Of a stretch of 64,000 nucleotides of DNA, positions 1 to 63,063 are shown one piece after another. The stretch lies in NCBI RefSeq assembly GCF_036365525.1, contig NC_090371.1, positions 136,644,737-136,708,736 of the forward strand. Reading direction: 5' to 3'. The position numbers and the translations under genes are program-made. The stretch's first letter is position 1. Every line of letters begins with the position of its first letter. Below the pieces are notes generated by a model. It did not search any database. It was not told where the DNA came from and worked only from the letters and a program-made list of their open reading frames with translations. Source of the stretch: Heterodontus francisci (taxonomy: Eukaryota).

Positions 1-545
1 AATACAGTACATGAGCTGCCTCACTACATATGCATTACAGGTTATATTTACAATGTACATTTACATTTCATGTCAAACATTCTGTGGTGCGTACAGCTGA
101 GGGGTTTTATGCGGTTTCCAACCCCTCGGTATACTATGGCAGGAGGGCCTTAGACAATGGCCTTTCCCCATTAAGTCTTTGCGGCAGCTGCCCAAGCTTC
201 AGTGTGTCCTTCAGCATGTAGTCCTGGACCTTGGAATGTGCAAGTCTGCAACAGTCGGTGTTCGACAGCTCTTTGCACTGGAAGACCAGCATGATTCGGC
301 CAGACCAAAGAGCGTTTTTCACTGAGTTGATGGTCTTCTAGCAGCAGTTAATGTTTATCTTGGTGTGTGTCCCTGAGAACAGCCCGCAGAGCACCGAGTC
401 CTGCGTTATGGAGCTGCTCAGGATGAACATCGACAGACACCACTGCATCTCTTTCCAGACCTGCTTTGCAAAGGCACATTCCAGACAGAGGTGGGCAACG
501 GTCTGTTCCCCATCATGGCCACCTCGAGGGCAGCGTGGCACCAGC
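1..545 (-). mobile_element. Tx1/L1-clade LINE 3' fragment (zf-RVT-like region and 3' UTR)
   Basis: Minus-strand translations CPRGGHDGEQTVAHLCLECAFAKQVW and KNALWSGRIMLVFQ...VQDYMLKD resemble the C-terminal zinc-binding region of Tx1 ORF2; interrupted by stops. Confidence 0.75.
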
Positions 546-934
546 AGTTTAATTGGAAGTTCTCTTGTTGACAGCACAGGTGGGGCAGACACATCCTGGA
601 TTACAGAACTGAATGTGAATATATTTGAAGCATACCGAAGTCGTACTAAGGCAGTATGAAGACTTCCTTTTTCCCTTTTTCTACTTATGAGCTTTGGAGC
701 ATCACTGATATCTGACACCTCTGTTATATTCTTAGGTAGCAGCCCGAAACTTCACACTGAATCTGCATGGGTGGATTTACCAGCGGTGGAGCCTGTTACA
801 CCAGCCATGTATATTGGTTTCTCCTCACCCATATCAAATTTGCGAGGTGCTCTGTGCATGTACAGTTTTCCTTGCCCATAAATTATACATTTTTTCTTTT
901 TCTCCACTTTTTTGCCTTGCTTTTGCCTTTAAGT

Positions 935-4696: not shown

Positions 4697-5704
4697 GGCC
4701 GGAGTTTTATGCCACCCCAGCGAGCCGGTTGGTGTGGGGGTGGGGGTGAGGTGTTGTAAGATTGAGCAGGAGGCTCTGTAATCTCCTCCAGCCCCACAAC
4801 CCTCTGAGATATCTGTGCTCCTCCAACGCTGGCCTCCTGAGCATCCCCAATTTTAATCCCTCCACAGTGGCGCAGTGGTTAGCACCGCAGCTTCACAGCT
4901 CCAGTGACCCAGGTTCAATTCTGGGTACTGCCTGTGTGGAGTTTGCAAGTTCTCCCTGTGTCTGCGTGGACTTTCTCCGGGTGCTCCGGTTTCCTCCCAC
5001 AAGCCAAAAAGACTTGCAGGTTGTTAGGTAAATTGGCCATTATAAATTCCCCCTAGTATAGGTAGGTGGTAGGGAAATATAGGGACAGGTGGGGATGTGG
5101 TAGGGACATGGGATTAGTATAAATGGGTGGTTGATGGTCGGCACAGACTTGGTGGGCCGAAGGGCCTGTTTCAGTGCTGTATCTCTAAAACTAAAAAAAA
5201 AACACTGGTGGCCACTTAATGGCCTTCACCCGCCTCCACGGGGATTTTACCCGTGGCAAACAGGCTTCTGGGAGATGTGAAAGGCTGCTCAGTGAAAGCT
5301 GGTGGCCTCTCAGCACCCCACGGGTGGGCCCTGAGAAACGGGCACAGGATGCCCGATTGACAGCCGCCGCCACTTCCCCAACCACCCCCAGGACCTGAGT
5401 CGCCCCGTTCCCCCCACACAGCCACCCTTGCCTTGCCGGGGCTCGTCCAAACACCCCACGAGGCAACTCTAACTTACCTGTTGTCCTGGCTCCATGTCCT
5501 CGGCTGGGCTGCAGTCCTAGCAGTTGCCACCGCTACCGATGGCGCAGCTGGAACTAAGAGCTGCTGGCCTGATGATTGATGCACCAGTTAAAGCCTGGGG
5601 ACCCATAAAATGTGGGACAGATCCCCAGGCCGGGCGGAAGCGGGTTCGCCCCCGACTTTTATGTCAGTGGCCAGCTCCCATCCGCCCAATGTAAAATCCA
5701 GCCC
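4697..5704. mobile_element. GC-rich non-autonomous DNA transposon (probably Harbinger-type MITE), interrupted by a SINE
   Basis: Terminal inverted repeats ggccggagttttatg / tgtaaaatccagccc; internal sequence matches 40711-41446 in opposite orientation. Confidence 0.65.
4862..5200 (+). mobile_element. HE1-like V-SINE (slightly 5'-truncated)
   Basis: tRNA-like A box (agtggcgcagtgg) and B box (ggttcaattc), V-domain ggtgctccggtttcctcccac, CR1-derived tail gggcctgtttcagtgctgtatctcta, A-rich end. Confidence 0.85.
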
Positions 5705-13189: not shown

Positions 13190-13490
13190 GGCGGCACAGT
13201 GGTTAGCACCGCAGCCTCACAGCTCCAGGGACCTGGGTTCGATTCTGGGTACTGCCTGTGCGGAGTTTGCAAGTTCTCCCTGTGACTGAGTGGGTTTTCG
13301 CCGGGTGCTCTGGTTTCCTCCCACAGCCAAAGACTTGCAGGTGATAGGTAAATTGCCCATTGTAAATTGCCCCTAGTGTAGGTCGGTGGTAGGGAATATG
13401 GGATTATTGTAGGGCTAGTATAAATGGGTGGCACAGACTCGGTGGACCAAAGGGCCTGTTTCAGTGCTGTATCTCTAAATAAATAAAAAC
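13190..13490 (+). mobile_element. HE1-like V-SINE
   Basis: gggcggcacagtggttagcaccgcagcctcacagctccagg head, V-domain, CR1-type tail and (taaa)n end. Confidence 0.88.
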
Positions 13491-15019: not shown

Positions 15020-17735
15020 ATTAGAGTCATAGAGTTATACAGCACAGAAACAAGCCCTTCAGCCCATCGTGTCTGTGCCGGCCATCAAGCACCTAACTAT
15101 TCTAATCCCATTTTCCAGCACTTGGCCCGTAGCCTTGTATGCTATGGCGTTTCAAGTGCTCATCTAAATACTTCTTAAATGTTGTGAGGGTTCCTGCCTC
15201 TACCACCGCTTCAGGCAGTGTGTTCTAGGTTCCAACCAGTGTGAAATCATTATTCCTCAAATCCTCTCTAAACCTCCTGTCCCTTACCTTAAATCTATGC
15301 TCCTTGGTTATTGACCTCTCTGCTAAGGGAAAAAGTTTCTTCCTATTTAATCGCTCATAATTTTGTATACCTCAATCAGGTTCCCCCTCAGCCTTCTCTG
15401 CTTTAAGGAAAACAACCCCAGCCTTTTCAGTTTCACTTCATAGCTGAAATGCTCCAGCCCAGGCAACACTCTGGTGAATATCCTCTGCACCCTCTCCAGT
15501 GCAATCACATCCTTCCTATAGTGTGGTGCCCAGAACTGTACACAGTATTCCAGGTGTGGCCTAACCAGCATTTTATACAGCTCCATCATAACCTCCCTGC
15601 TCTTATATTCTATGCCTCAGTTAATAAAGGCAAGTATCCCATATGCCTTCCTAACCACCTTATCTACCTGTGCTGCTGCCTTCAGTGATCTATGGACAAG
15701 TACACCAAGGTCCCTCTGACCTTTTCTACTTCCTAGGGTCCTACCATCCATTGTATATTCCCTTGCCTTGTTAGTCCTCCCAAAATGCATCACCTCACAC
15801 TTCTCAGGATTAAATTCCATTTGCCACTGCTCCACCCATCTTACCAGCCCATCTATATCGTCCTGTAATCTAAGGCTTTCCTCCTCACTATTTACAACAC
15901 CAGAAAATTTTGTGTCATCTGCGAACTTACTGATCATACCTCCTATATTCACATCTAAATCATTAATGTACACTACAAACAGCAAGGGTCCCAGCACCGA
16001 TCCCTGCGGTGTCCCATTGGTCATAGGCTTCCACTCGCAAAAACAACTCTCGATCATCACCCTCTGCCTCCTGCCACTAAGCCAATTTTGGATCCAATTT
16101 GCCAAATTGCCCTGGATCCCATGGGCTCTCACCTTCTTAACCAATCTCCCATGCGGGACTTTATCAAAAGCTTTACTGAAGTCCATGTAGACTATATCAA
16201 CTGCTTTAACCTCATCTACATATCTAGTCACCGCCTCGAAAAATTCAATCAAATTTGTTAGACACGATCTCCTTCTGATAAAGCCATGCCGACTATCCCT
16301 GATTAATCCCTGCCTCTCCAAGTGGAAATTAATCCTGTCCCTCAGAATTGTTTCAAATAGTTTCCCAACCACTGATGTTAGACTCACTGGCCTGTAATTA
16401 CCTGGTTTATCCCTACTACCATTGAATAATGGTACCACATTCGCTGTCCTCCAATCATCTGGTACCTCTCCTGTGGCCAGAAAGGATTTGAAAATTTGTG
16501 TCAGAGCCCCTACTATCTCCTCCCTTGCCTCACATAACAGCCTGGGATACATCTGAATGGGCCTGGGGATTTATCCACTTTTAAGCCCGCTAAAACAGCT
16601 AATACTTCCTCCCTTTCAATGCTAATATGTTCAAGTATATCACTATCCCCATTCCTGATCTCTACACCTACATCATCCTTCTCCATAGTGAACACAGATA
16701 TAAAGTAATCATTTAAAATCTCACCTATGTCCTCTGGCTCCACACACAGATTGCCACTTTGGTCCCTAATGGGCCCTACTCTTTCCCTGGTTATCCTCTT
16801 GCCCTTAATACACTTATAAAATACCTTAGGGGTTTCCTTTATCTAGCCCACCAGTGCTTTTTCATGTCCCCTCTTCGCTCTCCTAATTACTTTTTAAAAT
16901 ACCCCCCTACAATTTCTATACTCCTCTAGTACCTCCGCTGTTTACAGCGCTCTGAATCTGCCATAAGCCTCCTTTTATTTCCTTATCCAATCCTCTATAT
17001 CCCTTGACATCCAGGGTTCCCTAGACTTTTTGGTCCTGTCCTACCCTTCACCTTAACGGAACATGTTGGCTCTGAACTCTCACTATTTCCTTTTTGAATG
17101 ACTCCCACTGGTCTGGTATAGACTTTCCTACAAGTGGCTGCTCCCAGTCCACTTTGGCCAGATCCTATTTTATCATATTGAAATCGGCTTTCCCCCAATT
17201 CAGTACCTTTATTTCCGGTCCATCTTTGTCCTTTTCCATAACTACCTTAAATCTTACAGAGTTATGGTCACTATCCCCGAAATGCACCCCCACTGACACT
17301 TCTACCACTTGTCCGGCTTCATTCCCTAGGATTAGGTCCAGTACCGCCCCATCTCTTGTAGGACTTTCTACGTGCTGGTTCAAAAAGCTCTCCTGTATGT
17401 ATTTAAGAATTCCACCCCCTTTAAGCCTTTTGCACTAAGACTTTCCCAATTGATATTGGGGAAGTTGAAATCCCCTACTATTATTACCCTATTATTTTTA
17501 CACCTCTCTGAGATTTACCTACATATCTGCTCCTCTATCTCTTCCTGACTATTTGGAAGCCGGTAGTACACACCCAGCAAAATGATTGCCCCCTTTTTGT
17601 TTTTAAGTTCCACCCATATGGCCTCATTTGAGGAACCTTCTAAGATATCATCCCTCCTTACTACAGTAATTGACTCCTTGATCAATAGTGCAATGCCACC
17701 TCCTCTTTTACCCCCTCCCCTGTCCCGCCTGAAGA
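15020..17735 (-). mobile_element. CR1 (HER1-like) LINE, 5'-truncated, ORF2 endonuclease end + RT + 3' tail
   Basis: ORFs 17165-17383 (PTRDGAVLDLILGN..GDSDH), 15617-16552 (RT: NYRPVSLTS, YMDFSKAFDKV, PQGSVLGP, FADD) and 15347-15589; (ctctatga)n tail; frameshifted. Confidence 0.95.
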
Positions 17736-26382: not shown

Positions 26383-27395
26383 CAGGGGTCGACAAATGGA
26401 CACCAGTGTCCGTGGTAAAAGATTTTGACGTCCAAGACTGGTAAATTCAGGGATGAGAAATTTCCCATTGGCTTCTTCACATTGGCTTTTTAAAAATCGC
26501 AAGTGTCTATTTCACAGCTGACAGACGCTGAGAGAGGGAACAGCGCTTCTGAACTTCGGACAGATTCGGGGTTTTCCGGTGGGTTCTGATTTCTTTTTTA
26601 AAAAGCCACCGGAAAACCTTGAATCTGTCTGAAGTGGGGAAACCGCTTTTCCCACTCCCATTAACGGTCAGAGGGAGAGAGAGAATGGGGGGGGGGAAGG
26701 AGAGAGAGAAATGGGAGAGAGAGAGAGAGAGAGGAGAAGTGAGAGAGGGGGAGGGAGAGGGGGAGGCAGAGAGAGAGAGGGGAGATAGAGGGGGAGGGAG
26801 AGAGAGAGGGGGAGAGAGAGAAGGGGGGCAGAGATAGCGGGGGAGAGAGCATGGGGAGAGGGGGGTGAAGAGAGAAGGGGGGCAGAGATAGCAGGGGAGA
26901 GAGAGCGGGGGAGAGAGTGGGGGGAGAGAGGGGGAGGGAGAGAGAGAGGGGAGAGAGAGAAGGGGGCAGAGATAGCAGGGGAGAGAGAGCAGGGGAGGGG
27001 GGGGGTGAGAGAGAGAGGGAGGAGAGGGGTGGACACAGAGGAGAGAGAGAGGGGTGAAAGATGGACACAGAGAGGGGATACGGATTGACACAGAGAGGGA
27101 GAAAGTGAGCGAGAGGGGAGAGAAAAAGATCAAGATCACTCCTGACGGATGGACATCTATCCGTATTCTCCACATTGCTACATCAAGTATGTGGGCAGAC
27201 ATTGTCTACTTGTGCAAGCAAAAACAATGCCAGGTATCTCACTAAATAGGGAGAAATGCATTTTAAATTGGACTGTGTTTTGATGACATTAGGTGGGCTA
27301 TACACTTTAAATACAGATTAACTGCCTCCACGTCTGTGACTGATTCAATAATTGTGTCAAATGCCTGTGGTGCAACATGTTGGTGCTTATCCTTG
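26383..27395. mobile_element. hAT-like non-autonomous element containing an expanded GA-rich repeat
   Basis: Perfect 8-bp TSD actgtggc (26375-26382, 27396-27403); left end CAGGGGTCGACAAA, right end a degenerate inverted match. Confidence 0.65.
26670..27125. repeat. Polypurine (GA/G-run) low-complexity tandem array
   Basis: Almost pure purine on +; recurring unit gagagaagggggcagagatagc(a/g)ggggagagag about three times. Confidence 0.9.
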
Positions 27396-35670: not shown

Positions 35671-36321
35671 AATTGGCAAAGGGTCAAGCAGATCAGAGAC
35701 TTAAGACAGTAAGGGGTTTTAGTCCATTGGGCACTGGCACCAGTACTGGGGAAAGAGGGAAGTGTTCCATTGGGTTGAGACCAGTGTCCTGCCAATTCAA
35801 AAATTAGGGCTGTATATAGGGCTATAAATTAAAAACAGGAGGGAGGGTTTCAGGTGAGAGGAAATTTAGAAATCTAAAGAGAAAAGTCAAGGTGATAAAG
35901 TAGTGTAGTGATTTGGGTAATGATAAGCAGATGTGGCAGGAAGGGACAGTGAGTTTAACAGTAATAATATAGCAGTAAATAAGGTCAAAACAGGGAATAA
36001 TGGTAAAAAAATTAAAACTAAAGGCTCTTTACCTGAATACACAAAGCATTTGTAATGAGATAGATGAACCAGAGGCACAAATAAAAATAAATGGTTTTGA
36101 TCTAATAGCCATTACAGGCTCATGAGGCTGGATGGTGTGTAGGAGGTGGGGCTCCTGGCGCCAGGCTGAAAAGGCAGGGTAACCCCACCTCTGCTTTTTC
36201 GCGGGACCCTGGAGCGATCCTCCGATGTTTTTCAATTAAAGATTGGCAAGCTGGGATCCCTGTCCCTTTAAAGACAGGGATCCCGTCTCCAGGAGCTGCT
36301 GGCCAATCAGAGGGCCGGCAG

Positions 36322-36995
36322 TAAAGCCTAGCTCGGGTATAAAATTAAAACCCAACCACAGCCAACCCGAACCCGACCCTATCCGAGCCCGAATGCTGGA
36401 CATAGAATAAAGACTGGACCGGACCTGAACCCAACACACGTCATAGAGTCATAGAGTTATACAGCACAGAAACAGGCCCTTTGGGCCATCATGTCTGTGC
36501 CAGCCATCAAGCACCTGCCTATTCTAATCCCGTTTTCCAGCACTTAGCCCGTAGCCTTGTATGCTATGGTGTTTCAAGTGCTCATCTAAATACTTCTTAA
36601 ATGTTATGAGGGTTCCTGCCTCTACCACCTCTTCAGGCAGTGCGTTCCAGATTCCAACCACCCTCTGGGTGAAAAAGTTTTTCCTCAAATCCCCTCTAAA
36701 CCTCCTGCCCCTTACCTTAAATCTAGACCCCCTGGTTATTGACCCCTCCACTAAGGGAAAAAGTTTCTTCCTATCTAACCTATCAATGCCCCTCATAATT
36801 TTGTATACCTCAGTCATATCTCCCCTCAGCCTTCTTTGCTCTAAGGAAAACAACCCTAGCCTTTTCAGTCACTCTTCATAGCTGAAATTCTCCAGCCCAG
36901 GCAACATCCTGGTGAATCTCCTCTGCACCCTCTCCAGTGCAATCACAACCTTGTAGTCGGGTTTGGTCGGGTTCGGGTCGGGTAGCCAGGCTTTA
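36322..36995. mobile_element. hAT-type MITE with cccga subterminal repeats
   Basis: TIR TAAAGCCTAGCT / AGCCAGGCTTTA; 8-bp TSD gccggcag / gccagcaa (6 of 8); aacccga repeats on the left and tcgggtt repeats on the right. Confidence 0.72.
36442..36950 (-). mobile_element. Young CR1 (HER1-like) 3' end
   Basis: Near-identical to 15020-15510; ORF 36524-36853. Confidence 0.92.
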
Positions 36996-39047
36996 GCCAG
37001 CAAATAGCAGTATCGACAGCGCCAGTGAGAGCGGTGGCCACTGCCGATATTGCAGAGGCCTCAGTCCCAGGCCCAGCGCTGGATCCCAGACAAGAGGTAG
37101 GTGAGGTGGAGTCACCTGGCCAGTCTGGGTCCTGAAGGAGGGGGGTTCTGGGGGGTAAAGGTGTTCTCAATGGCAGTCCTCCGTGGGCTAAATATTGCAT
37201 ACGAAGTAGGGCGCCCCCCCGAAGCCCACAGGGAGAGCACCTTGTTTTATAAGGAGTCCTCCCTGCACAGCGGAGGCTCCCCCCACCGCTGGTAAGATCC
37301 CAGCGGCAGTGGGACCAGACTCTTAACTGGCCATTAATAGACCACCTAAGGGTCTCGATGGCCTCTGGGTAAGAAGGCTGTCACCAGCCTTTTCCACCCT
37401 GGGAAGATCACCTAGCGATGGAGAGGCGACGGCACTCTGCCCCTGCCCACTGCCACCCATCACGATACTCCCTGCCCATCTGCCTCCTTCCCCAGCGCTG
37501 GGGGGGGTGACCATAAAATCCCAACCATGGTCGCAATGTGACCAAGGATGGGAACTAAATATTACAGATACTTGACATTTCAAAAAGTCAGCCCTACACC
37601 TGTGTATGTTCTTAAGTTCTTAAACTTCCTCCAGTTTAAATATCATCAGAACAAAATCCACTCTATTTCTCTCCCAACAGCATCTCTGTGTCTCCTGTGT
37701 TGTCTGTTAGTTTTCTCTGGATGTTACCTCAAGCTACGTCAGGAGCAGAACTCAGCGTCCTACCTCTCCATCCACTCTGGTCACTTTCTTTTCCCTCAAC
37801 AATATAGCCCATTTCTCTCCTACCATCTCCAAATCTTAGTCTATAACTTCATTGTCACCAGATAAGATCGTAAAAAACAAAAGGCACCTGTGAAACCATG
37901 AGCCTGACCCCTCAGGAGAAAATTAAGATATACTTAGAGCCAAACTTGTTTATTGCCATCACAGTTATATGATGTATATTCCTGCCACTAAATGCCTTGT
38001 ATACGCTAGTATATTTGTATTCTCTCAGTAGCTTTTTTAAAAAAGTATAAATTATTCAGATACAAACTTGTCTTTGTTTTCATTTTTCACTATCAGATAA
38101 AATAGGAGGAAATGATGCAGATCAACATGCAGTATTGCACCAGTGTGCAGAAAAGGGTAATGTAACAATATATTAGAAAAATGGGTGCAAAATTATTTGC
38201 AATTGCAAATTGTTTCAAAGTCATCCATATTTATTATATTATGGCAGACCTTGGCAGCAAAAAGTGATTTATAGTTCAATTTTGCTTTGATGTGAGGCCA
38301 CTGTGTACACATGCATGTGTGTGAGCTAGGAACAACGTTATTAAGACTTAAGTCCATTCAAGAAAAAAAATACAAAATTTTTCTGAGTGAATTTTTAAAG
38401 CTGCGTGGCTTTAAGTTTATTTATTGAAATTATAAAATCATCTTTTAATATTGCTGAGGAAAAGTTAATTAAAATAGAACATATTGTCTCTTTGAGATGC
38501 TAAGCATGTGGGTAGACTTCTGTTGAGTTATTGCAGGTGTTTTAATTTTTGTGGGAGTGGAGATGAGTTTTACTGACGCCAGGATGTTGTATTCTGATTA
38601 TATCATTTGTATCCTGTTTATCAGGATGTGCACTATTCAGCTCATCACTGTGAACACAATATCAAAATGAAAAGATCTGCTTCACCTATTACCATAAATT
38701 AATTTTCAAAATTTTTGTCATACGCTAGAGCCATATTTGCATCAAACCCTTACAAACGTAACGCAGATGCTATAGTTTAAGTGCAATTTTGCTAAACAAA
38801 ACAATAGTTATTACTCACATTAGCAATGATTCCACTAAAAGATTGCCATCAGGGACTATTCTGATATCTTACTTGGAAATGTACTGCACTGTGTGGTACT
38901 ATTCCAGATGGACCAGAAAGATTCCAAGTTCAATCCTTAGGTTTTGCTCATCTCAGATGAGCTGTTAAATTCCAGAAAGTTTGTTGTGGAAGGATAATGC
39001 TGGAGCTTATCTTTACTCAGTTTCACATTTATTATACAGAGTACACA

Positions 39048-39381
39048 GGGCGGCACAGTGGCGCAGTGGTTAGCACCGCAGCCTCCCAGCTCCAGTTCTG
39101 GGTACTGCCCGTGCGGAGTTTTCAAGTTCTCCCTGTGGCTGCGCGGGTTTCCGCCGGGTGCTCCGGTTTCCTCCCACCTCCAAAAGACTTGCAGGTTGAT
39201 AGGTAAATTGGCCATTGTAAATTGCCCCTAGTGTAGGCAAGTGGTAGGAGAATGGTGGGGATGTGGTAGAGAATATGGGGATTAATGTAGGATTAGTATA
39301 AATGGGTGGTTGTTGGTCGGCACAGACTCGGTGGGCCGAAGGGCCTGTTTCAGTGCTGTATCTCTAAATAAATTTTTTTTT
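39048..39381 (+). mobile_element. HE1-like V-SINE inserted in the LTR
   Basis: Same family as 4862-5200 and 13190-13490. Confidence 0.9.
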
Positions 39382-39473
39382 GAATAAAGTAAAAGGATTA
39401 CAAACATGTAGCCCCTCACTCAAAACCCTCCACCAGTCTCAGTAGGAGTCTCTTTATAGTGCTGAAGTAAGAC

Positions 39474-40043
39474 AAACAAAGAACAGTACAGCACAGGAAC
39501 AGGCCATTCGGCCCTCCAAGCCTGCGCCGATCTTGATGCCTGCCTAAACTAACACCTTCTGCGCTTCCGGGGTCCGTATCCCTCTATTCCCATCCTATTC
39601 ATGTATTTGTCAAGATGCCTCTTAGACGTCGCTATGGTACCTGCTTCCACCACCTCCCCCGGCAACAAGTTCCAGGCACTCACCACCCTCTGTGTAAAGA
39701 ACTTGCCTCGCACATCCCCTCTAAACTTTGCCCCTCTCACCTTAAACCTATGTCCCCTAGTAACTGACTCTTCCACCCTGGGAAAAAGCTTCTGACTATC
39801 CACTCTGTCCATGCCGCTTATAACTTTGTAAACCCCTATCATGTCGCCCCTCCACCTCCATCGTTCCAGTGAAAACAATCAGAGTTAATCCAACCTCTCC
39901 TCATAGCCAATACCCTCCAGACCAGGCAACATCCTGGTAAACCTCTTCTGTACCCTCTCCAAAGCCTCCACGTCCTTCTGGTAGTGTGGCGACCAGAATT
40001 GCACGCAATATTCTAAGTGTGGCCTAACTAAAGTTCTGTACAG
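39474..40043 (-). mobile_element. CR1 3' fragment (second subfamily) inserted in the LTR
   Basis: [19 protein letters not shown] and FFTQRVVSAWN; tail differs (gttctttgttt). Confidence 0.9.
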
Positions 40044-40099
40044 AGCCCAGTTAACAACCTCCAATTGCATATGATTAAACAATTAATACATAATTAACA

Positions 40100-40117
40100 G
40101 ATTCCCTTCTTTCTTTT
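40100..40117 (-). other. Polypurine tract of the Copia element
   Basis: Minus strand aaaagaaagaagggaatc directly precedes the 3' LTR start TGTT. Confidence 0.75.
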
Positions 40118-40189
40118 ATAATAAAAGTTAGATTAATATGTTCAAACAACATTGAAGAATAAATTCCATATTAGATACAAAGTATTACA

Positions 40190-42060
40190 TTGCGAGACAC
40201 CCTCCTCTAACACCCCTAACAATTTTTTTGTACTAGCATTTCTTTTTGTGAAACAATCGGATAGCTGATGACTTGCATCTACCTGCTCAAGTTTGGAGAT
40301 TTCCTTTCTCTCCAGCATTTGTTTTAATCCAGAAGATTAGCATGTGAAGCATCACTAAAAATGACTAAAAATGTTTTTTGTGTGACCTAAGGTCACCTCA
40401 GTGCACACTTCTCCAGGTTTAACTTTTTTAATATTTTATTTGCCCTTAAAATATTCTCAACTTTCAGGTGTTTCATCATTGTACTTAGCTCCAGCACATC
40501 AAAAATAGCATCAGGTCTAGTCTGAGTCCACAACCAATTTAATTAACTGATTAGGTTTGCAATTGCTCGGTCTCTTCTTTAGATAGATCATCATCTCTCT
40601 GTGATGACCTAACACAATTAAATGGAATGGGAGTAACACTCTCTAAATAGGATTGTTGATTTAAAGTTATTCCAGTCAGTCTCCTTAATATCTAAACCAA
40701 TACATTTAAAGGCCCCACAGGCCGAATCCCAGATAAAAGTCAGTGACGAACCCGTTTCTGCCTAGCCCAGGGAGCCGTTCCACATTTTACGGGTCCCCTG
40801 GCTTTAATTGTTCAGAGGCAGGACTTCCACCTGCTTGAGGGAGGATGTCCCGCCTCATTGAGCTGCCGGCCAATCATCGGGCCGGCAGCTCTTAATCCCA
40901 GCAGTGCCACCGGGAGCAGTGGCCACTGCTGCGATTGCAGCCCAGCCAAGGACATGGAGCCAGGAGTGAGGTAAGCAAGGTTTGCCATGCCGGGCCGCGA
41001 CCGATGTGCCCGGCGAGTCAAGGGTGGTCGTTTGGGGGGAAGTGGGAGCATCTTGGGTCCAGGGGATGGGTTGGGAGGTGGGGGCTGACCTCAATCAGGC
41101 ACCCTGTGCCCAATTGTCAGGGCACCCCCTGGGGCGTGGAAAGGCCAGCAGCTTTCACTGGGTAGCCTTTTATGTCCACAGCACGCCGCTTGCCACAGGT
41201 AAAATACCAGTGGAGATGGGTGAAGGCCCTTAAGTGGCCATTAAGTGTCCACTTAAGGGCCTTGATTGGCCTGGGGTGAGCAGACCGTTTCTCGCACCCC
41301 TCCCACCCTCCCCCCCCCCCCCACCACCTTCGTAAAGTTGGCCGGAGGCGGGAGCGGGTCGGAAAGGCCTCCCAGAGCCTCCCACTCATTTTACGCCACC
41401 CCCATGCCACCATCCGGCTTGCAGGGGTAGCGTAAAATTCCAGCTCCAATCTTAAATTCTGCTCTAATCTTATTAATAACATATTTCTCAAAATCCACAC
41501 TACCACCCCTTAAGAAATTATCAACGTGCATCATGAAGATGCCTGAAAGTTTCCCTTTATGATACCAATAAAACATTGCAGGATCTGATTTTAGTTTAAC
41601 ACAAACAATTTTCAACAAAACTGATCTCACTGAGAAATACCACACCCTGGAAGTATCATTAAGGCCAGAGGCACATTTGTTCAGTTTCCATAGTTTTCCT
41701 TCTGCATCTGCTGCCTCTTTAGGTGGTTTCAGAAACACTTCTCTCTGAAAATGCTCACTCTGCATAAATGCAGCTTTTATGTCAATGGATTTACATTCCC
41801 ATGAATATATGGCCAAACGAGCTAAAAGAATTTTTAATATTACTTTTCCAGCTGTGGGAGAGTCCACTCGAGCATCAGTATCACCCAGTCGCTCTTCAAA
41901 ACCCCTTGCAACTAGCCTCACTTTAGCCTTATAACTTCCATTGGGAAGGACTTTTTCAGTACAAATCCAGCTATGTCACAAGGCTGGCTGTCCCCAATCT
42001 GGTGCCTCAGAATTTACACCAAACTTGATCCAAGTCTCTAATTCCTTATTATTGCTTCTC
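40190..42060 (-). pseudogene. Copia reverse transcriptase / RNase H remnant (split by MITE)
   Basis: RLVARGFEE, DSPT, IDIKAAF, RVWY, SDPAMF, MHVDN(D), LNWL..QTRPD, SDAS and terminal QLSDCFTK. Confidence 0.9.
40711..41446. mobile_element. Harbinger-type MITE inserted in Copia RT
   Basis: Reverse complement of the family at 4697-5704; end gcgtaaaattccagc. Confidence 0.7.
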
Positions 42061-42577
42061 ATTAGTTTATCCTCAAGTTTATTGGCAGCCACTAAAACTT
42101 CACCGTCATGAGGACTTCTGCTTTTAGTTCTAATCTGAGACTGCTCTCTAGCCTTTGTTTCATAGTGGAATCTGTTCAAAATACAGCCTATATTAGCACT
42201 GTGATGTATTTTGGGATGACTGCTATAAGATCTCCCTTGCTCACTATCGGAGGCTCTTTCTACAGTACGGGATCATTTCCTGATGCAAGAGTCACTTCCA
42301 GACCCACTATTAAAACTTACACTGCTCTTAATTACTCTCCACTCATTCGCTCCATTCTGCCAGTCCATGGACATTGCTTCTCGGCCATCATCTTGAACAT
42401 TCAACCAATATTTAAACTTGCCAGTAGATTTTCCTGCACATCCCACATTTGTTGCATCTCTCCATTTATTAGACCCCTCTGGAATATATGTTACCCAAGT
42501 ACCTACTCAGGGCAATTGTTCTTTGGATGCTCTTTCTTGAGTGTCATGATCACTCTCACATTACTAGCCAACCCTTG

Positions 42578-44171
42578 ATAGAGTCATAGACTCATAGAGT
42601 TATACAGCACAGAAAGAGGCCCTTCGGCCCATCATGTCTGTGCTGGCCATTAAGCACCCAACTATTCTAATCCCATTTTCCAGTACTTGGCCTGTAGCCT
42701 TGTATGCTATGGCGTTTCATGTGCTCATCTAAATACTTCTTAAATGTTGTGAGGGTTCCTGCCTCTACCGTCTCTTCAAGCAGTGCGTTCCAGATTCCAA
42801 CCACCCTCTGGGTGAAAATTATTTTCCTCAAATGCTCTCTAAATCTCCTGCCCCTTACCTTAAATCTAGACCCCCTGGTTATTGGCACCTCCACTAAGGA
42901 AAAAATGTTTCTTCCTATCTAACCCTATCAATGCCCTTCATAATTTTGCATACCTCAATCAGGTTCCCCCTCAGCCTTCTCTGCTCTAAGGAAAGCAACC
43001 CCAGCCTTTTCAGTCTCTCTTCATAGCTGAAATGCTCCAGCCCAGGCAACATCCTGGTGAATCTCCTCTGTACCCTCTCCAGGGCAATCACATCCTTCCT
43101 ATAGTGTGGTGCCCAGAACTGTACACAGTACTGCAGCTGTGGCCTAACCAGCATTTTAGTCAGCTCCATCATAACCTCCCTGCTCTTATATTCTATGCCT
43201 CGGCTAATAAAGGCAAGTATCCCATATGCCTTCCTAACCACCTAATCTACCTGTGCTGCTGCCTTCAGTGATCTATGGAGAAGTACACCAAGGTCCCTCT
43301 GACCCTCTGTACTTCCTAGGGTTCTACAATCCATTGTATATTCCCTTGCCTTGTTAGTCCTCCCAAAATACATGACCTCACATTTCTCAAGATTAAATTC
43401 CATTTGCCACTGCTCCGCCCATCTTAGCAGCCCATCTATATCGTCCTGTAATCTAAGGATTTCCTCCTCACTATTTACAACACCACCAAATTTCGTGTCA
43501 TCCGCGAACTTACTGATCATACCTCCTATATTCACATCTAAATCATTAATGTACACTACAAACAGCAAGGGTCCCAGCACCGATCCCTGCGGTACATCAC
43601 TGGTCACAGGCTTCCAATCGCAAAAACAACCCTGACCATCACCCTCTGCCTCCTGCCACTAAGCCAATTTTGGATCCAATTTGCCAAATTGCCCTGGATC
43701 CCATGGGATCCTACCTGCTTAACCAATCCCCCATGCGGGACTTTATCAAAAGCCTTACTGAAATCCATGTAGACTACATCAACTGCTTTACCCTCATCTA
43801 CGCATCTAGTCACCACCTTGAAAAATTCAATCAAGTTAGTTAGGCACGATCTCCCCCTGACAAAGCCATGCTGACTATCCCTGATTAATCCCTGTCTCTC
43901 CAAGTGGACATTAATCCTGTCCCTCATAATTTTTTCCAATTGTTTCCCTATCACTGATGTTAGACTCTCTGGCCTGTAATTACCTGGTTTAGCCCTGCTG
44001 CCCATCTTGAATAATGGTACCACATTTGCTGTCCTCCAATCCTCTGGTGCCTCTCCTGTGGCCAGAGAGGATTTGAAAATTTGTGTTAGAGCCCCTGCTA
44101 TCTCCTCCCTTGCCTCACATAGCAGCCTGGGATACATCTCATCTGGGCCTGGGGATTTATCCACTTTTAAG
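42578..44171 (-). mobile_element. Young CR1 (HER1-like) LINE, 5'-truncated, inserted between Copia IN and RT
   Basis: ORFs 43604-44215, 43242-43607 and 42915-43241; highly similar to 15020-16590. Confidence 0.95.
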
Positions 44172-44349
44172 TGATCGACCGTATTCTGTTCCTCAGGACC
44201 TTCATCACTAAACACATGATCATTTGAGGTACAAGGTGCCTTGTTTCCCTCTATCAGCTGCTCAGATTCTGAGATTTTATAATCGAACCCTGATTAATCA
44301 TGAGAATTGAACCTTAACAGTTTGATATCCATGCTTGATAACTACTGTC

Positions 44350-45210
44350 TTATCATCATGACCTTACCTGCCCCTTCCATTCCCTATGACCCTCTCTTTT
44401 ATAATACACCAAATCTCCTGAATTAAATTCTGCCTCAGATGGCCTTATATGATGCCTCAGAGCTCTCCGAATTTTCTCAGAGACCTCAGCCTTGATGAGA
44501 GCCCATCTCCCTGCATGTAAAGAATTCGAATGTGCAGAAAAAATTGAACTAATTGTAGTACCTTCTAGAGCAGGAGGACTGTCACATAGTACAAAAGGCA
44601 ATTTGGGATTTCACCCATAGTCCGATTGATAGGGACTATATTCCCCAACCATCATAAGCAAATTCTTTGTGTGAACTGCCAATGCCAGGGGAGTTGTCAA
44701 TTTGCAGTCGGCTGGTCAGCTCAGATTTTATGCAGCATTTCATCAATCACTGCATGATTCCTTTCACAGAGTCCATTGCTGAAAGGACTTTGAGCTTCCA
44801 TATTCATAACTATAATGTTCATGTTTTCACACTTGTCTCTGAACTCATCATTGGCAAATACCCCTCCATTATTAGTCAGAAACTTAGCAGGTTCCCCAAG
44901 TCCAGTCCCTATTGTAGAAAGACAAGATCTAGTTGCTAGGTCTATAAAATGTAGAATGAAAATATTCTTGTCTTTGTGTCTTTGTTCCATACTTTAAATC
45001 CATGGCAACCACGTCGTTAAAGTTACATGCCAATGGAGGGCTGACAATAGGATGTGATGGTGTCCTCCGATACTTTTTACAGATTTCATGCTTTTCACTA
45101 ATCTCTTCTGTTATCCTTATATACTCTTCATCAATCATATTTGCAACCTTTAGCAGGGTTTTTAATCTTTGACAAGAAGGGTGAGCAAATTGTCTATGTA
45201 GCGTGTAACT
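44350..45210 (-). pseudogene. Copia integrase remnant
   Basis: HRQFAH-x30-(H for C)EIC zinc motif; VVAMDLK, FLTNNGG (D to N) and SPFSNGLCERNH catalytic segments. Confidence 0.88.
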
Positions 45211-45277
45211 TTAAGACAATTTGCTTTTTATCTCTCTGATTCAAAACACCTGATGCCATTAATACCTCTTTAACACT

Positions 45278-45690
45278 CTAACAAGAAACATCAGGTTTTG
45301 TTGAGGGGATACCATAATGCCCTGACTGGGTAAACTGCAAATTCACTGACTTTCCAAAAACAAGTGCCTTATCATGCTCCATATCAAGTTTCATTTGTGC
45401 CTTTTTCATTGAAGGTTTGCTCAACAGTAAAGGTATCTCACTAGAGACTATATCAGTACTGATAAAGTGGCTTGCTTCAGCTATTTTACATGGATTTACT
45501 ACTCTCTTCAGTGACTTCAATGTGTTGTCATTACCAAACCTAAAGCTGGTAGTAAGTACTTTTATACTCCTTAACCTCGCATCGATTCTCACGATTGGGT
45601 GAATCAAGATAACACATACTGTCAATGCGCAAGCATTATTTAATACAGCACAGTTGAATTAATCTGCAACTAACACATTCATCACAGGAC
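45278..45690 (-). pseudogene. Copia aspartic protease remnant
   Basis: FNCAVLNNACALTVC (degenerate D-S/T-G site), FRFGND, IPLLLSK. Confidence 0.7.
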
Positions 45691-45769
45691 TAAATCTCCC
45701 TGTGACTGGTACAATTCATTCAGATTCATCAGTATCTTCCTCTTCTGCCCCAGAATTCTCTGTATTGTG

Positions 45770-46634
45770 TGTTATTTTGAGGACTCTGCCCCTCTGCTTT
45801 GGGCAGTTCATTGCGTCACACCTGAAGCAACTATTAACTGTCTCTTGGTCATTCCTGGGATTCATTCGCCTATGATTGCTGTTCCAATTCTGTCTTCTAC
45901 TGTAATAGTCAGACCTGCTAAAGGTGCTTTCATCCTTATTCCTCCTGCCTTTAACTCTTCCATTATACTTATGCCTGCGTCCAGTATCTGGACCATTTCA
46001 AAATCCAGTGAACATTAAGTCCTACATTCTTTGTGTCACCATAAAATGCCCTGTCTGTTCTTCCAGGGCTGAATGTTTCTGCAGGAATTTCTGTAAGGCA
46101 GCAGCCATCTGATCTAACAGGGAGTCTTTTTCCAAGAACCGAACCCCAGTTAGAATGACGAGCCTGTCCATATGTGACACCCCAGCATATTTTGGCAATT
46201 TAAATTCTAACGCTGAACCAGAGATCGCCAAATTAAATTTCCTCAATCTCCTATGCAGTCTGTTAAAGTCCATGATATATTCCTCTATTGTATAACCATC
46301 TGTTTTCCAAAATCTATGACCGTCTGACCATGCTTCTTATGCATTCAACAAGTCATCTTTCTTGTAAATTTCATCCAAAAATTCTAACAGAAGATCCAAA
46401 CCTTCATCAGTATCCAACTGATGCATCCGGTCCACAAAACACTTCACTTCTGATTTTATGTTTGGTAGGAAGTGACAACACCCAGGCCATACGTTGTTTT
46501 CTCTTTGGTAGGGATGTAACCCGTGTCCACATATCCACTTCATTTTTCCACTGTTCATATGGTTCAGACTCAGAGAACAACGGAGGGTAATCATACCCAG
46601 ATAATTTGCACTTCCTTTCTGCCATATTTTCCAC
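45770..46634 (-). pseudogene. Copia gag remnant
   Basis: YPPLFSESEPYEQWKNEVDMWTRVTSLPKRKQ; partly deleted zinc knuckle CFRCD..NCP near 45800-45840. Confidence 0.75.
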
Positions 46635-46703
46635 AATAGCCAGTGAGATTTTAGTTTTCTATGAAAATTTTTTTTCCCTAGATTTCAACCTTCAGCCTTA
46701 GGC

Positions 46704-46721
46704 AACCATCCTCTGCTACCA
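46704..46721 (-). other. Primer-binding site for initiator tRNA-Met
   Basis: Minus strand TGGTAGCAGAGGATGGTT abuts the 5' LTR; + strand AACCATCCTCTGCTACCA equals the 3' 18 nt of vertebrate tRNA-iMet as I recall it. Confidence 0.9.
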
Positions 46722-46916
46722 TGTTAAATTCCAGAAAGCATGTTGTGGAAGGATAATGCTGGAGCCTATCTTTACTCAGTTTCATATTTATTGTATAGAA
46801 TAAAAGGATTACAAACCCTCCACCAGTCTCAGTAACAGTCTCCTTATGTGTTCAAGTAAGACCCAGGTTAACACCCTCCACTTACATGTAATGAAACAAT
46901 TGATATGCAATTAACA
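46722..46916 (-). repeat. Copia 5' LTR (195 bp)
   Basis: TGTTAA...TTAACA termini; homologous to 38963-40099. Confidence 0.92.
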
Positions 46917-46994
46917 TGGGTACGCTTGGAGATTCTACAAATATCTCCAGAATCCTTGGGATAGGGAAGAAAAATATTAATTGTGACTCTTATT

Positions 46995-47435
46995 GAGGTT
47001 GTCAGCTTTGCTCAGTGACAGCACTGTCACCTCTGAGTCAGAAGGTTATGGCTTCAAGTCCAACTCCAGAATGTATAATTCAAATGTTTACATTTGTGCA
47101 GTATTGAGGGAGTGCTGCACAGTAGGAGGTGGAGTCTTTCAGTGAGGTGTTAAACCAAGACCCCTGCTGTACTCTCAGGTGGGCGTAAAAGATCCTATTG
47201 CACTAGCCTGAGAAACAAGCAAGTAATTCTCCTCAGAGTCCTGGCCAATATTTATCCCTCAACCAACGTCAACACAGATTTTTTTGGTCATTTACTTATT
47301 TGCTCTTTGTAGGACCTCACTGTGCCCAGATTGGTTGCTGCGTTTCCATATTACAAAGTACTACATTGGCTATAAAGCACTTTGGGCTGTCCTGAGGTTG
47401 AGAAAATCTCTATATACTTGCAAGTTCTTTCTTCG
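46995..47435 (+). mobile_element. Deu-domain SINE (SacSINE1-like) with L2-type tail
   Basis: tRNA-like head (gctcagt...ttcaagtcc), central gagggagtgctgcac...gtgttaaacc, tail ttgcaagttctttctt. Confidence 0.65.
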
Positions 47436-48445: not shown

Positions 48446-48929
48446 ATTGATTCCATGCTTGGGTGCTCCCATTTAGAAACAATTTCTGGAAGTACAGGTT
48501 GGATAATGTGAACCTGATCTTTGTTGAGAGCATCTGGTCACAGAATCAGCTCTTTAGTATGTTGTAAGTTAGAAAATCAACAGGTGATGTGGGAGGGAAA
48601 TTCATGACCTGACTCTGGGTGAGCTGATTTTTATGCGCTAAATGGCCTTTCTTAATCTGTGCTTCTTCATGTTTTTATGCACCGTAGTGTAAGTGAGCAC
48701 CTTCAGATGGGGTGAAAATTGGAGGGTGAAAGAAAAGAGATGTCATCATCATCAGAAAGTGTTTGGCAAACATTTTTGTTGTTCTTTACAGACATATGAC
48801 ATGGTAAGATTTTGATTGCAATCACATAAAATGGATGAAAGTGAGTCATCAACTTTTTTTACATCTCTCCTGTTTTTACTTCTATTAAACTCAATTGAAA
48901 TAAAAACCGGAAGAGATGTAAAACAAGTG

Positions 48930-49700
48930 GCCAATTTGTTATCACTCATTGAGGTCACAACGGCTCCAGTTTTCTTCGCTGTAGGGTTGCTTCAGGCTGC
49001 TGCAGGTAACAGGTGGGCATTACAACTATACTGCAAAAGTACTTAATTGGTTGTAAAGGGCTTTGGGATGTCCTGAAATCACAAAAGATGCTATATAAAT
49101 GTAAGTTTTTCATCAACCAGTCAGCCATGCATTTCTGCATCAAGCAGGTTACTGATGCCATCTCTCGAAGAGTGGGCATTTTTACCAACTTCATTATGGA
49201 CAGCAGAAGCTGGAATTACCACACTGTTGGCTTTACAGCCATTGCAGGCTTCCCCCATGCGCAGGGAGTTATCGCTTGCATACATGTCACCAAGGGTATC
49301 TTTCCATGAGCCTGTGGCCTTCCTAATCAGGAAGGGCTTCCATTCAATAAATGTTCAAGTAGTTATAGACCATGCCCTGAAAACTATGCATGTGTGTGAA
49401 TGCTATCCAGGGAGGTTGCATGATGCTGTCAAACTGCAAAGGACCACAGAGCTTGCACTTTACAAGTGTATGGATGGCTCATTGGAGAAAAGTGCTAAGG
49501 TCCATCCACATGGCTCATGACACCACTTTGGCATCCGCAGCCACCCACTGAACAGTGCTACAACAATAGCCATAAGAGTATCAGTGCCATGATTGAGCAG
49601 GCCTTCAGAATACAGAAGTAATGCTTCAGATACTTGGATTGGTCATGCAGCACTGCAAAATACAGGCTGCCATGAGTGTATAATGCCATGCTATATAAGT
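48930..49700 (+). pseudogene. Harbinger (HARBI1-like) DDE transposase remnant
   Basis: SQSAMHFCIKQVTDA, IAGFPHAQGVIACIHV, RKGFHSINVQVVID, YPGRLHDA, WLMTPL; frameshifted, with a SINE/L2 tail piece at about 49010-49110. Confidence 0.85.
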
Positions 49701-61315: not shown

Positions 61316-62652
61316 CTTTTGGGCCTCCTTATCTCGAGAGACAATGGATACGCGCCTGGACGTCTTTATAACGGAGACATGGACGGCCGGTGGGTCTGAT
61401 ACCAGTGGCGAGCTCGCTGTACAATGTGTCTTTGGGGATCCTGCCATCTTCCATGCGGCTCACATGGCCAAGCCATCTCAAGCGCCGCTGACTCAGTAGT
61501 GTGTATAAGCTGGGGATGTTGGCCGCTTCAAGGACTTCTGTGTTGGAGATATAGTCCTGCCACCTGATGCCAAGTATTCTCCGAAGGCAGCGAAGATGGA
61601 ATGAATTGAGACGTCGCTCTTGGCTGGCATACGTTGTCCAGGCCTCGCTGCCGTAGAGCAAGGTACTGAGGACACAGGCCTGATACACTCGGACTTTTGT
61701 GTTCCGTGTCAGTGCGCCATTTTCCCACACTCTCTTGGCCAGTCTGAACATAGCAGTGGAAGCCTTACCCATGCGCTTGTTGATTTCTGCATCTAGAGAC
61801 AGGTTACTGGTGATAGTTGAGCCTAGGTAGGTGAACTCTTGAACCACTTCCAGAGCGTGGTCGCCAATATTGATGGATGGAGCATTTCTGACATCCTGCC
61901 CCATGATGTTCGTTTTCTTGAGGCTGATGGTTAGGCCAAATTCATTGCAGGCAGACGCAAACCTGTCGATGAGACTCTGCAGGCATTCTTCAGTGTGAGA
62001 TGTTAAAGCAGCATCGTCAGCAAAGAGGAGTTCTCTGATGAGGACTTTCCGTACTTTGGACTTCGCTCTTAGACGGGCAAGGTTGAACAACCTGCCCCCT
62101 GATCTTGTGTGGAGGAAAATTCCTTCTTCAGAGGATTTGAACGCATGTGAAAGCAGCAGGGAGAAGAAAATCCCAAAAAGTGTGGGTGCGAGAACACAGC
62201 CCTGTTTCACACCACTCAGGATAGGAAAGGGCTCTGATGAGGAGCCACCATGTTGAATTGTGCCTTTCATATTGTCATGGAATGAGGTGATGATACTTAG
62301 TAGCTTTGGTGGACATCCGATCTTTTCTAGTAGTCTGAAGAGACCACGTCTGCTGACGAGGTCAAAGGCTTTGGTGAGATCAATGAAAGCAATGTAGAGG
62401 GGCATCTGTTGTTCACGGCATTTCTCCTGTATCTGACGAAGGGAGAACAGCATGTCAATAGTCGATCTCTCTGCACGAAAGCCACACTGTGCCTCAGGGT
62501 AGACGCGCTCGGCCAGCTTCTGGAGCCTGTTCAGAGCGACTCGAGCAAAGACTTTCCCCACTATGCTGAGCAGGGAGATTCCACGGTAGTTGTTGCAGTC
62601 ACCGCGGTCACCTTTGTTTTTATAGAGGGTGATGATGTTGGCATCGCGCATG
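61316..62652 (-). mobile_element. Young RTE-clade LINE, 5'-truncated, with 11-bp TSD
   Basis: TSD tctctgagttt at 61305-61315 and 62653-62663; CpG-rich; uninterrupted frame. Confidence 0.95.
61329..62652 (-). pseudogene. RTE reverse transcriptase open frame (no endonuclease domain, C-terminus deleted)
   Basis: NYRGISLLS, QCGFR, FIDLTKAFD, GVKQGCVLAP, LFADD, FTYLGS, LLYGSEAW, RLRWLGHV. Confidence 0.92.
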
Positions 62653-63063
62653 TCTCTGAGTTTACAAGTCTTCAAATAGGGATCACAAGTGGACTTTACT
62701 TCCTTGTATGCATTCTAAACTAGTGTCTCGTTCTTAAAACTGGCACTATTCGCCAAGCGCCAGAGTCTCAAGGCACAACAGCTTAGACATGCGTATGCTA
62801 ATATTCTAACATAAATGTTAGCAGCAACGTTTTCAACTTCACCACACTTTATATATAATCAGTGCAACTGTGGTAACCTCCTGCTCCTGATACCATAGCA
62901 ACACACACCATGCAGCAACTGCCAAGTGTCCAAGCTACAGCAATGAAGCTGTGTATTATAGTGCATGAAGCAGTCTTCTGTGACTACAAGCCTCCTTACA
63001 AATAGTACTATTTGTATACTGATTTCCATGGCTAGCTATTTTCATTCGACGACTTACACAAAT

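What the first reader, a model, noticed from the sequence alone, without database searches (positions are those of the whole stretch)
38963..46916. Near-complete GalEa-type Copia provirus hidden under four nested insertions in a shark-like genome
Seen: two LTRs of about 200 bp (TGTTAA...TTAACA), PBS, PPT, and gag-PR-IN-RT-RH order on the minus strand. Removing the four nested elements leaves roughly 4.7 kb. Motifs: RLVARGF, HVD(D) instead of YVDD, TRPD, H-x4-H-x30-C-x2-C spacing, Met-tRNA PBS. Established, from memory: these features characterise the GalEa clade known from aquatic invertebrates and some teleosts, and Copia elements are scarce in vertebrates. Inference: an elasmobranch GalEa family, possibly uncatalogued. 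The LTRs differ by about 7 of the first 81 bases and more distally, so the insertion is old.
Basis: partly seen in the sequence, partly recalled or inferred. Interest (0 to 1): 0.75.

Follow-up and report, generated by a model that had tools for sequence, protein, structure and literature searches.

The report
Decayed shark GalEa Copia retrotransposon copy
An old, broken Ty1/copia jumping gene lies here split by four later insertions; it likely belongs to the GalEa group, which a 2025 survey already reported in two sharks, so it is an ordinary genomic fossil.

Summary
On the minus strand (46916-38963) lie a 195-bp 5' LTR, an 18-nt primer site identical to the one built for human initiator tRNA-Met, gag-PR-IN-RT-RH colinear with intact ~1,470-aa Copia polyproteins, a polypurine tract and a 3' LTR in three pieces. 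Four later insertions (two CR1-type LINE fragments, a SINE, a GC-rich repeat) total ~3.25 kb, leaving 4.70 kb. The copy is dead: at least 11 stops, 7 frame changes, altered catalytic motifs, ~100 aa of RNase H missing; LTR distance 0.126. Novelty fails at clade level: PMC11889832 (2025) lists 7 GalEa clusters in the catshark (719 Copia copies) and 3 in the white shark. Laid contigs suggest a high-copy family. This exact family may be unnamed; Dfam/Repbase could not be checked. Four look-ups in the scan's own notes found no earlier GalEa note in this genome. Low interest.

The parts
46722..46916 (-). 5' LTR, 195 bp, TGTTAA...TTAACA; lacks 21 bp that the 3' LTR has
   Evidence: a locus-specific contig with no differences bridges its outer end and the flank (46818-47049)
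46704..46721 (-). Primer-binding site, 18 of 18 nt equal to the PBS made complementary to the 3' end of human initiator tRNA-Met
   Evidence: sequence in the primers of PMC1797187
45200..46625 (-). gag and protease, broken (6 stops, frame changes, shortened zinc knuckle, altered protease motif)
   Evidence: tblastn of P0002 aa 8-488, 37-52% identity
44184..45201 (-). Integrase, broken (frame changes, ~18 aa missing, altered zinc and catalytic residues; 35-residue D..E spacing kept)
   Evidence: 55-65% identity to P0002
42575..44183 (-). Nested insertion 1: 5'-truncated CR1-type LINE, ~1.6 kb
   Evidence: RVT_1 E 4.7e-17 and 1.9e-11; 90.8% to a copy at 15022-16585; a contig joint 42550->44183 skips it (1 contig per run, short side 21 nt); 'CR1' label recalled
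41448..42574 (-). IN-RT linker and first part of reverse transcriptase (RLVARGF, DIKAAF, HVDN)
   Evidence: RVT_2 E 3.4e-20; up to 62-63% identity to relatives
40722..41447 (.). Nested insertion 2: ~725-bp GC-rich (61%) non-coding repeat, likely a non-autonomous DNA transposon (type inferred)
   Evidence: RT alignment stops at 41427-41447 and resumes at ~40734; 76% to 5209-5578
40190..40721 (-). End of RT and RNase H (TRPD, SDAS, SDCFTK), ~100 aa missing, several stops and frame changes
40102..40117 (-). Polypurine tract
40047..40099 (-). 3' LTR, piece 1
   Evidence: aligns to 5' LTR positions 1-54
39474..40046 (-). Nested insertion 3: 573-bp 3' end of a second CR1-type LINE family
   Evidence: 69-72% to insertion 1 and to 36611-36936
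39391..39473 (-). 3' LTR, piece 2
   Evidence: aligns to 5' LTR positions 55-115
39042..39390 (+). Nested insertion 4: 349-bp SINE whose 3' tail is shared with the LINE (HE1/HER1-like; name recalled), ~6-bp target duplication
   Evidence: 79-81% to copies at 4863-5189 and 13193-13484, tail 81% to 42595-42673; joint 39041->39391 skips it in 3 of 4 runs
38963..39041 (-). 3' LTR, piece 3 (ends TTAACA)

Best explanation
This is a dead, decayed copy of a Ty1/copia LTR retrotransposon, likely of the GalEa clade and likely from a high-copy shark family, that was later interrupted by four unrelated repeats. When active it would have been transcribed from the 5' LTR, likely translated as one gag-pol polyprotein, packaged in cytoplasmic particles, primed by host initiator tRNA-Met at the 18-nt PBS, reverse-transcribed with plus-strand priming at the polypurine tract, and integrated by its DDE integrase (mechanism inferred from the family; parts shown). 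After insertion it drifted neutrally, lost part of RNase H, and received two LINE fragments, a SINE and a GC-rich repeat; it can no longer encode working proteins.
For: Anatomy shown. PBS 18/18 to the tRNA-Met(i) PBS of PMC1797187. LTR start TGTTAA, DIKAAF, HVD-, TRPD, SDAS, xDCxTK match the Zeco1/Olco1 rows of the published GalEa table. RT tree of 52 rows: the window row falls with crustacean (Petrolisthes, a krill-containing cluster) and tunicate (Styela) relatives, split 100/100 from 18 Tnt1/copia-type rows. None of 119 Tnt1/copia-type proteins hits the gag-PR or IN parts at E<=1e-4, while the close relatives hit all four domains. One reading frame runs from gag through protease to the start of integrase (aa 64-488 of P0002), as in single-ORF GalEa. 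Summed contig depth over Copia-only bins is about 9,500-30,500 at 82% likeness in run X1, against about 8 for the unique flank (the tool warns this is no copy number), and related pieces lie in runs of three organism labels. Joints that skip the SINE and the large LINE show copies without those insertions. Shark host: a Heterodontus francisci predicted protein holds a 55-aa piece 76% identical to this RT.
Against: No named GalEa element (GalEa1, Zeco1, Cico1, Olco1) could be placed in the tree, so the clade is anchored by motifs and host labels only; the ingroup may be the wider Branch 1 of Copia. The PBS differs at position 12 from the 12-mer called strictly conserved in metazoan GalEa. The target-site duplication is only 3 of 5. 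No joint skipping the GC-rich insert or the second LINE was among the rows shown (2,001 and 50 joints were not shown).
Confidence: 0.87

Rival explanations
1. The element is a chimera: the two LTRs and flanks come from two different integrations joined by ectopic recombination (or gene conversion changed one LTR), so the LTR distance does not date it.
For: Flanks agree in only 3 of 5 letters, about as likely by chance (~10%) as by decay at this divergence (~10%) (own arithmetic); a 21-bp indel separates the LTRs, and divergence is uneven (10 of 53 aligned positions in piece 1, 7 of 79 in piece 3).
Against: Both flank mismatches are transitions, as decay would give; the internal domains are colinear without duplication.
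Confidence: 0.2
2. It belongs to Branch 1 of Copia but to an undescribed sister clade of GalEa rather than GalEa itself.
For: No named GalEa reference in the tree; the base of the ingroup is unresolved; PBS 12-mer differs at one letter.
Against: Seven short motifs match the teleost GalEa rows; all classified shark clusters in the 2025 survey are GalEa (7 of 8 clusters in catshark, 3 of 3 in white shark); the paper names GalEa as the metazoan clade of Branch 1.
Confidence: 0.07
3. The arrangement is an assembly artefact stitched from repeats.
For: No laid contig spans the whole stretch.
Against: Contigs with no differences bridge the 5' LTR/flank junction (46818-47049) and the RT/LINE junction (42498-42606) in three runs of one sample (possibly the source sample, so not independent); protein colinearity continues across the inserts.
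Confidence: 0.03

Closest known systems
Shark GalEa clusters of PMC11889832 (Mob DNA 2025): Scyliorhinus canicula 7 clusters (719 Copia copies), Carcharodon carcharias 3 clusters (210 copies); Additional file 3 read whole, sections 10, 11, 13 read
   Same: Same clade call, same host group, high copy number
   Different: Heterodontus is not in that survey's species table; sequence identity to those clusters is untested because their FASTA file (Additional file 8) could not be read
Teleost GalEa elements Zeco1 (Danio rerio) and Olco1 (Oryzias latipes); motif table of PMC5445492 Additional file 5
   Same: LTR start TGTTAA, DIK(A/S)AF, HVDD-type RT motif, (T/S)RPD, SDAS, xDCxTK, 35-residue D..E spacing, single gag-pol frame, Met-tRNA PBS next to the LTR
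   Different: PBS letter 12 is G here, C in the table; LTR ends TAACA rather than TTACA; this copy is broken and interrupted
CoRex1 of Rimicaris exoculata (PMC3587641, passages)
   Same: 217-bp LTRs, 4,949 bp, HX4HX30CX2C integrase motif, similar PPT
   Different: Two ORFs and YVDD in CoRex1; crustacean host
Unnamed intact polyproteins P0002, P0001 and P0003 (cluster with Meganyctiphanes norvegica proteins) and Petrolisthes manimaculis P0006/P0007
   Same: 58-63% RT identity, colinear over all domains
   Different: No protein over 68% identity across half or more of the RT was found; the 76% hit covers only 55 aa

Membership tests
Ty1/copia LTR retrotransposon | LTRs, PBS, PPT and gag-PR-IN-RT-RH order with Copia-type RT | tested here: met
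GalEa clade | Monophyly with GalEa references in an RT/RH tree (bootstrap >=70) | tested here: inconclusive
   RT-only tree (176 aa, 52 rows): 100/100 apart from Tnt1/copia-type rows, with crustacean and tunicate neighbours; no named GalEa reference available
GalEa clade | Short LTRs bordered by TGT...CA and total size under about 5 kb (metazoan members) | tested here: met
   195 bp and about 215 bp; 4,702 bp without inserts, about 5 kb allowing for the deletions (criteria)
GalEa clade | tRNA-Met PBS directly after the 5' LTR | tested here: met
   18 of 18 to the human tRNA-Met(i) PBS
GalEa clade | Exact 12-mer TGGTAGCAGAGC described for metazoan members (descriptive; fungal GalEa have no PBS at all) | tested here: not met
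   11 of 12; the last letter follows the vertebrate tRNA instead. Not treated as defining, since the clade is defined by the tree and includes members without it
GalEa clade | 5-bp target-site duplication | tested here: inconclusive
   3 of 5, both mismatches transitions
GalEa clade | Integrase HX4HX30CX2C and D..D(35)E | tested here: met
   Spacings 4, 30, 2 and 35 kept; two of the residues are altered in this decayed copy; 42/56 relatives vs 8/110 Tnt1/copia-type proteins have the motif
GalEa clade | RT/RH motifs KARLVA, D(I/V)K.A(F/Y), (Y/H)VDD, (T/S)RPD, SDAS, ADxxTK | tested here: met
   KVRLVA, DIKAAF, HVDN, TRPD, SDAS, SDCFTK against the table; RLVARGF and TRPD alone are not diagnostic
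GalEa clade | Gag zinc knuckle C2C4H4C and single large ORF | tested here: inconclusive
   Knuckle shortened by a deletion; gag to start of IN in one frame but with 6 stops
An already annotated shark family (Dfam/Repbase/2025 reference set) | >=80% identity over >=80% of the consensus | not testable with these tools
   No repeat library is offered; Additional file 8 of PMC11889832 unreadable; no genome held

The most novel reading that the evidence does not exclude
The shark lineage of GalEa came by horizontal transfer from a marine crustacean, took on the vertebrate initiator-tRNA primer site in full (18 of 18, whereas teleost GalEa are listed with the invertebrate-type 12-mer), and amplified to thousands of copies before several shark lineages split, leaving dated markers and at least one piece inside a predicted host gene model (Heterodontus FBXW8 isoform X2).
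Probability: 0.12. Interest if true: 0.45.

Novelty: new member of a known kind. Interest (0 to 1): 0.14.

Why it matters
Little on its own: it is one dead copy of a clade already reported in sharks. It extends shark GalEa to a likely further lineage, and its nested layers give a relative order (Copia first, then LINEs, SINE and the GC-rich repeat) useful for repeat annotation. It would matter more if the family proved to be a crustacean-to-shark transfer.

Tried and rejected
Genome-wide copy search and empty-site test: no whole genome held. Naming the nearest proteins: 8 of 10 clusters and 10 of 10 carried no name. Profile-free search of 1.84 billion representatives gave no full-length RT above 59% identity. 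Expression: no RNA holder listed; runs marked 'RNA?' are guesses and were not used as evidence. Organisms B and C hold only small word shares (0.05-0.08); laid contigs show related copies at 82% likeness but no shared locus could be shown. Absolute dating: the pedigree rate of 7e-10 per generation (PMC10587355, passages) gives about 9e7 generations, implausibly old for multi-year generations, so no date in years is given. ARAGORN and Rfam found nothing, so the SINE's tRNA origin and the name HE1 rest on recall plus a table row (PMC3747384). Host exons: Pfam on 30 of 149 ORFs outside the element found only mobile-element domains. Literature searches for a dedicated description found only the 2025 survey and a one-line mention of Copia in whale shark; Terrat et al. 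2008, the clade's original paper, was not seen. The figure PDFs, slide file and FASTA of PMC11889832 were unreadable and may bear on family identity. Considered and rejected: env-bearing or Gypsy-type element (IN precedes RT, RVT_2, no room for env); domesticated gene (all domains broken).
Full report
Observation. The minus strand from 46916 to 38963 carries an LTR retrotransposon. The 5' LTR (46916-46722, 195 bp) begins TGTTAA and ends TTAACA and is followed at once by a primer-binding site. The 3' LTR is in three pieces (40099-40047, 39473-39391, 39041-38963) that align in order to positions 1-54, 55-115 and 116-195 of the 5' LTR; over 193 aligned positions there are 16 transitions and 6 transversions (p 0.114, K2P 0.126 +/- 0.028) and a 21-bp stretch that only the 3' LTR has. 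A purine tract lies just before the 3' LTR. Of 17 ORFs scanned, the one at 41391-41975 is a Copia-type RT (RVT_2, E 3.4e-20) and two inside 43242-44293 are RVT_1. Five intact relatives of 1,407-1,497 aa align colinearly as gag-PR-IN-RT-RH.

State of the copy. Against P0002 the first six aligned blocks hold 11 in-frame stops, and there are at least 7 frame changes; about 100 aa of RNase H, about 18 aa of integrase and part of the gag zinc knuckle are absent, and catalytic or zinc-binding residues of protease, integrase and RT are altered. 'Near-complete' is true of the outline, not of the coding capacity. The flanks agree in 3 of 5 letters, which neither proves nor excludes a decayed target-site duplication.

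The insertions. (1) 42575-44183: a 5'-truncated LINE with RVT_1, 90.8% identical to a copy at 15022-16585; one contig per run joins 42550 to 44183, i.e. a copy without it (short side 21 nt, weak). (2) 40722-41447: a 61% GC non-coding repeat (the 5' Copia part is 39%), 76% like 5209-5578; RT resumes directly after it; I infer a non-autonomous DNA transposon. (3) 39474-40046: the 3' end of a second LINE family, 69-72% like the first. (4) 39042-39390: a SINE on the opposite strand with two other copies in the window and a tail 81% identical to the LINE's 3' end; joints skipping exactly these 349 bp occur in 3 of 4 runs. A SINE/LINE pair HE1/HER1 is tabulated for sharks and rays (PMC3747384, table row); that these are those families, and the CR1 label, are recalled, not tested.

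Host and family size. A predicted Heterodontus francisci protein holds a 55-aa piece 76% identical to this RT, and unchecked notes of this scan call the genome a horn shark; a shark host is likely. No whole genome is held. In run X1 the Copia-only bins have summed contig depth of about 9,500-30,500 at 82% likeness, against about 8 for the unique flank contig; the tool warns that this is no copy number, so I read it only as 'many copies, plausibly hundreds to thousands'. Related pieces lie in runs of three organism labels. Contigs with no differences bridge the 5' LTR/flank and RT/LINE junctions in three runs of one sample, which may be the source sample.

Clade. The published table of six metazoan GalEa elements (PMC5445492 Additional file 5; section 10) gives for the teleost elements Zeco1 and Olco1 TGTtaa, DIK(S/A)AF, HVDD, (T/S)RPD, SDAS, ADCLTK; this copy reads TGTTAA, DIKAAF, HVDN, TRPD, SDAS, SDCFTK. 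The HX4HX30CX2C spacing of CoRex1 (PMC3587641, passages) is kept. A count over 56 close relatives and 110 Tnt1/copia-type proteins shows that RLVARGF (41 vs 35) and TRPD (33 vs 64) are generic, whereas HVDD (54 vs 16), H4H30C2C (42 vs 8) and SDAS-like (53 vs 8) discriminate (the close set was picked by likeness to the query). An IQ-TREE tree of 52 RT rows (34 picked from the close hits including the window row, 18 from the Tnt1/copia-type set; P0134 dropped for lacking RT) splits the two sets 100/100; the window row's nearest is P0003 (63%), whose cluster holds krill proteins, in a five-row group at 96/80. None of 119 Tnt1/copia-type proteins hits gag-PR or IN. No named GalEa element was in the tree, so membership is likely, not shown. 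The PBS differs at position 12 from the 12-mer called strictly conserved in metazoan GalEa, and instead equals for 18 nt the PBS designed against human initiator tRNA-Met (PMC1797187, passages); since the PBS is recopied from the primer tRNA in each cycle (established knowledge), this fits replication in a vertebrate host.

Mechanism. Shown: the parts and their order, the breaks, the nesting. Inferred from the family: LTR transcription, one gag-pol polyprotein, priming by tRNA-Met(i), plus-strand priming at the PPT, integration by the DDE integrase, later neutral decay. Rivals: a recombinant of two copies (0.2; compatible with the main reading but voiding the date), a sister clade within Branch 1 (0.07), misassembly (0.03).

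Novelty. PMC11889832 (2025; passages, sections 10, 11, 13, Additional file 3 whole, passages of file 7) lists Copia in 5 chondrichthyans; the catshark has 719 copies with 7 of 8 clusters in GalEa, the white shark 210 copies with 3 of 3. I read the clade from the column position; the reading gives 13 species (besides the pooled Repbase teleost row) for that tree, matching the '13 species' of file 7. Sawfish and elephant shark are marked 'No'. Heterodontus is not in the species table, and a search for it with Copia found no paper. So elasmobranch GalEa are known; this family in this host may be unnamed, which could not be tested. The scan's notes held no GalEa or matching-sequence finding. Age cannot be put in years: the only rate I read (7e-10 per generation) gives an implausible 9e7 generations.

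Verdict. A real, ordinary, dead nested retrotransposon; new member of a known kind; interest 0.14. The boldest reading left open, a crustacean-to-shark transfer, rests on nearest named neighbours at about 60% RT identity and lacks teleost references, so I give it 0.12.

Noticed in passing
P0117 aa 283-337 (matches window 41625-41789): The predicted Heterodontus francisci F-box/WD repeat protein 8 isoform X2 contains a 55-aa piece of this Copia RT (76% identity): an exonised repeat or a gene-prediction artefact.
   Followed up: partly
window 48852-49517: DDE_Tnp_4 (PIF/Harbinger-type) transposase fragment at 49077-49517 (+), E 7.1e-06, beside a 26-nt inverted repeat at 48852-48928.
   Followed up: no
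window 61332-62714 (-): 461-aa open frame with RVT_1 (E 2.7e-34) and weak DUF6451: a comparatively intact non-LTR retrotransposon of another family.
   Followed up: no
window 15022-16585 and 36440-36952: Two more copies (about 91% identical) of the LINE nested in the Copia element; 15620-16570 holds a 317-aa RT frame.
   Followed up: partly
window 5209-5704, 36281-37500, 63065: Further GC-rich repeats related to, or starting like, nested insertion 2; 36362-36981 has 25-nt inverted arms.
   Followed up: partly
window 46598-46682: Contigs of runs X5 and X7 skip 85 bp around the gag start; the ends are not canonical splice sites, so probably deletion variants of other copies.
   Followed up: no
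window 341-751 (-): Weak zf-RVT hit (E 0.0064), possibly the end of an L1/Tx1-type element.
   Followed up: no
window 26674-27105: Degenerate GA-rich simple repeat of about 400 bp.
   Followed up: no
whole window: No host protein domain was found in the 30 of 149 ORFs scanned; the window looks like repeat-rich intergenic or intronic DNA.
   Followed up: partly
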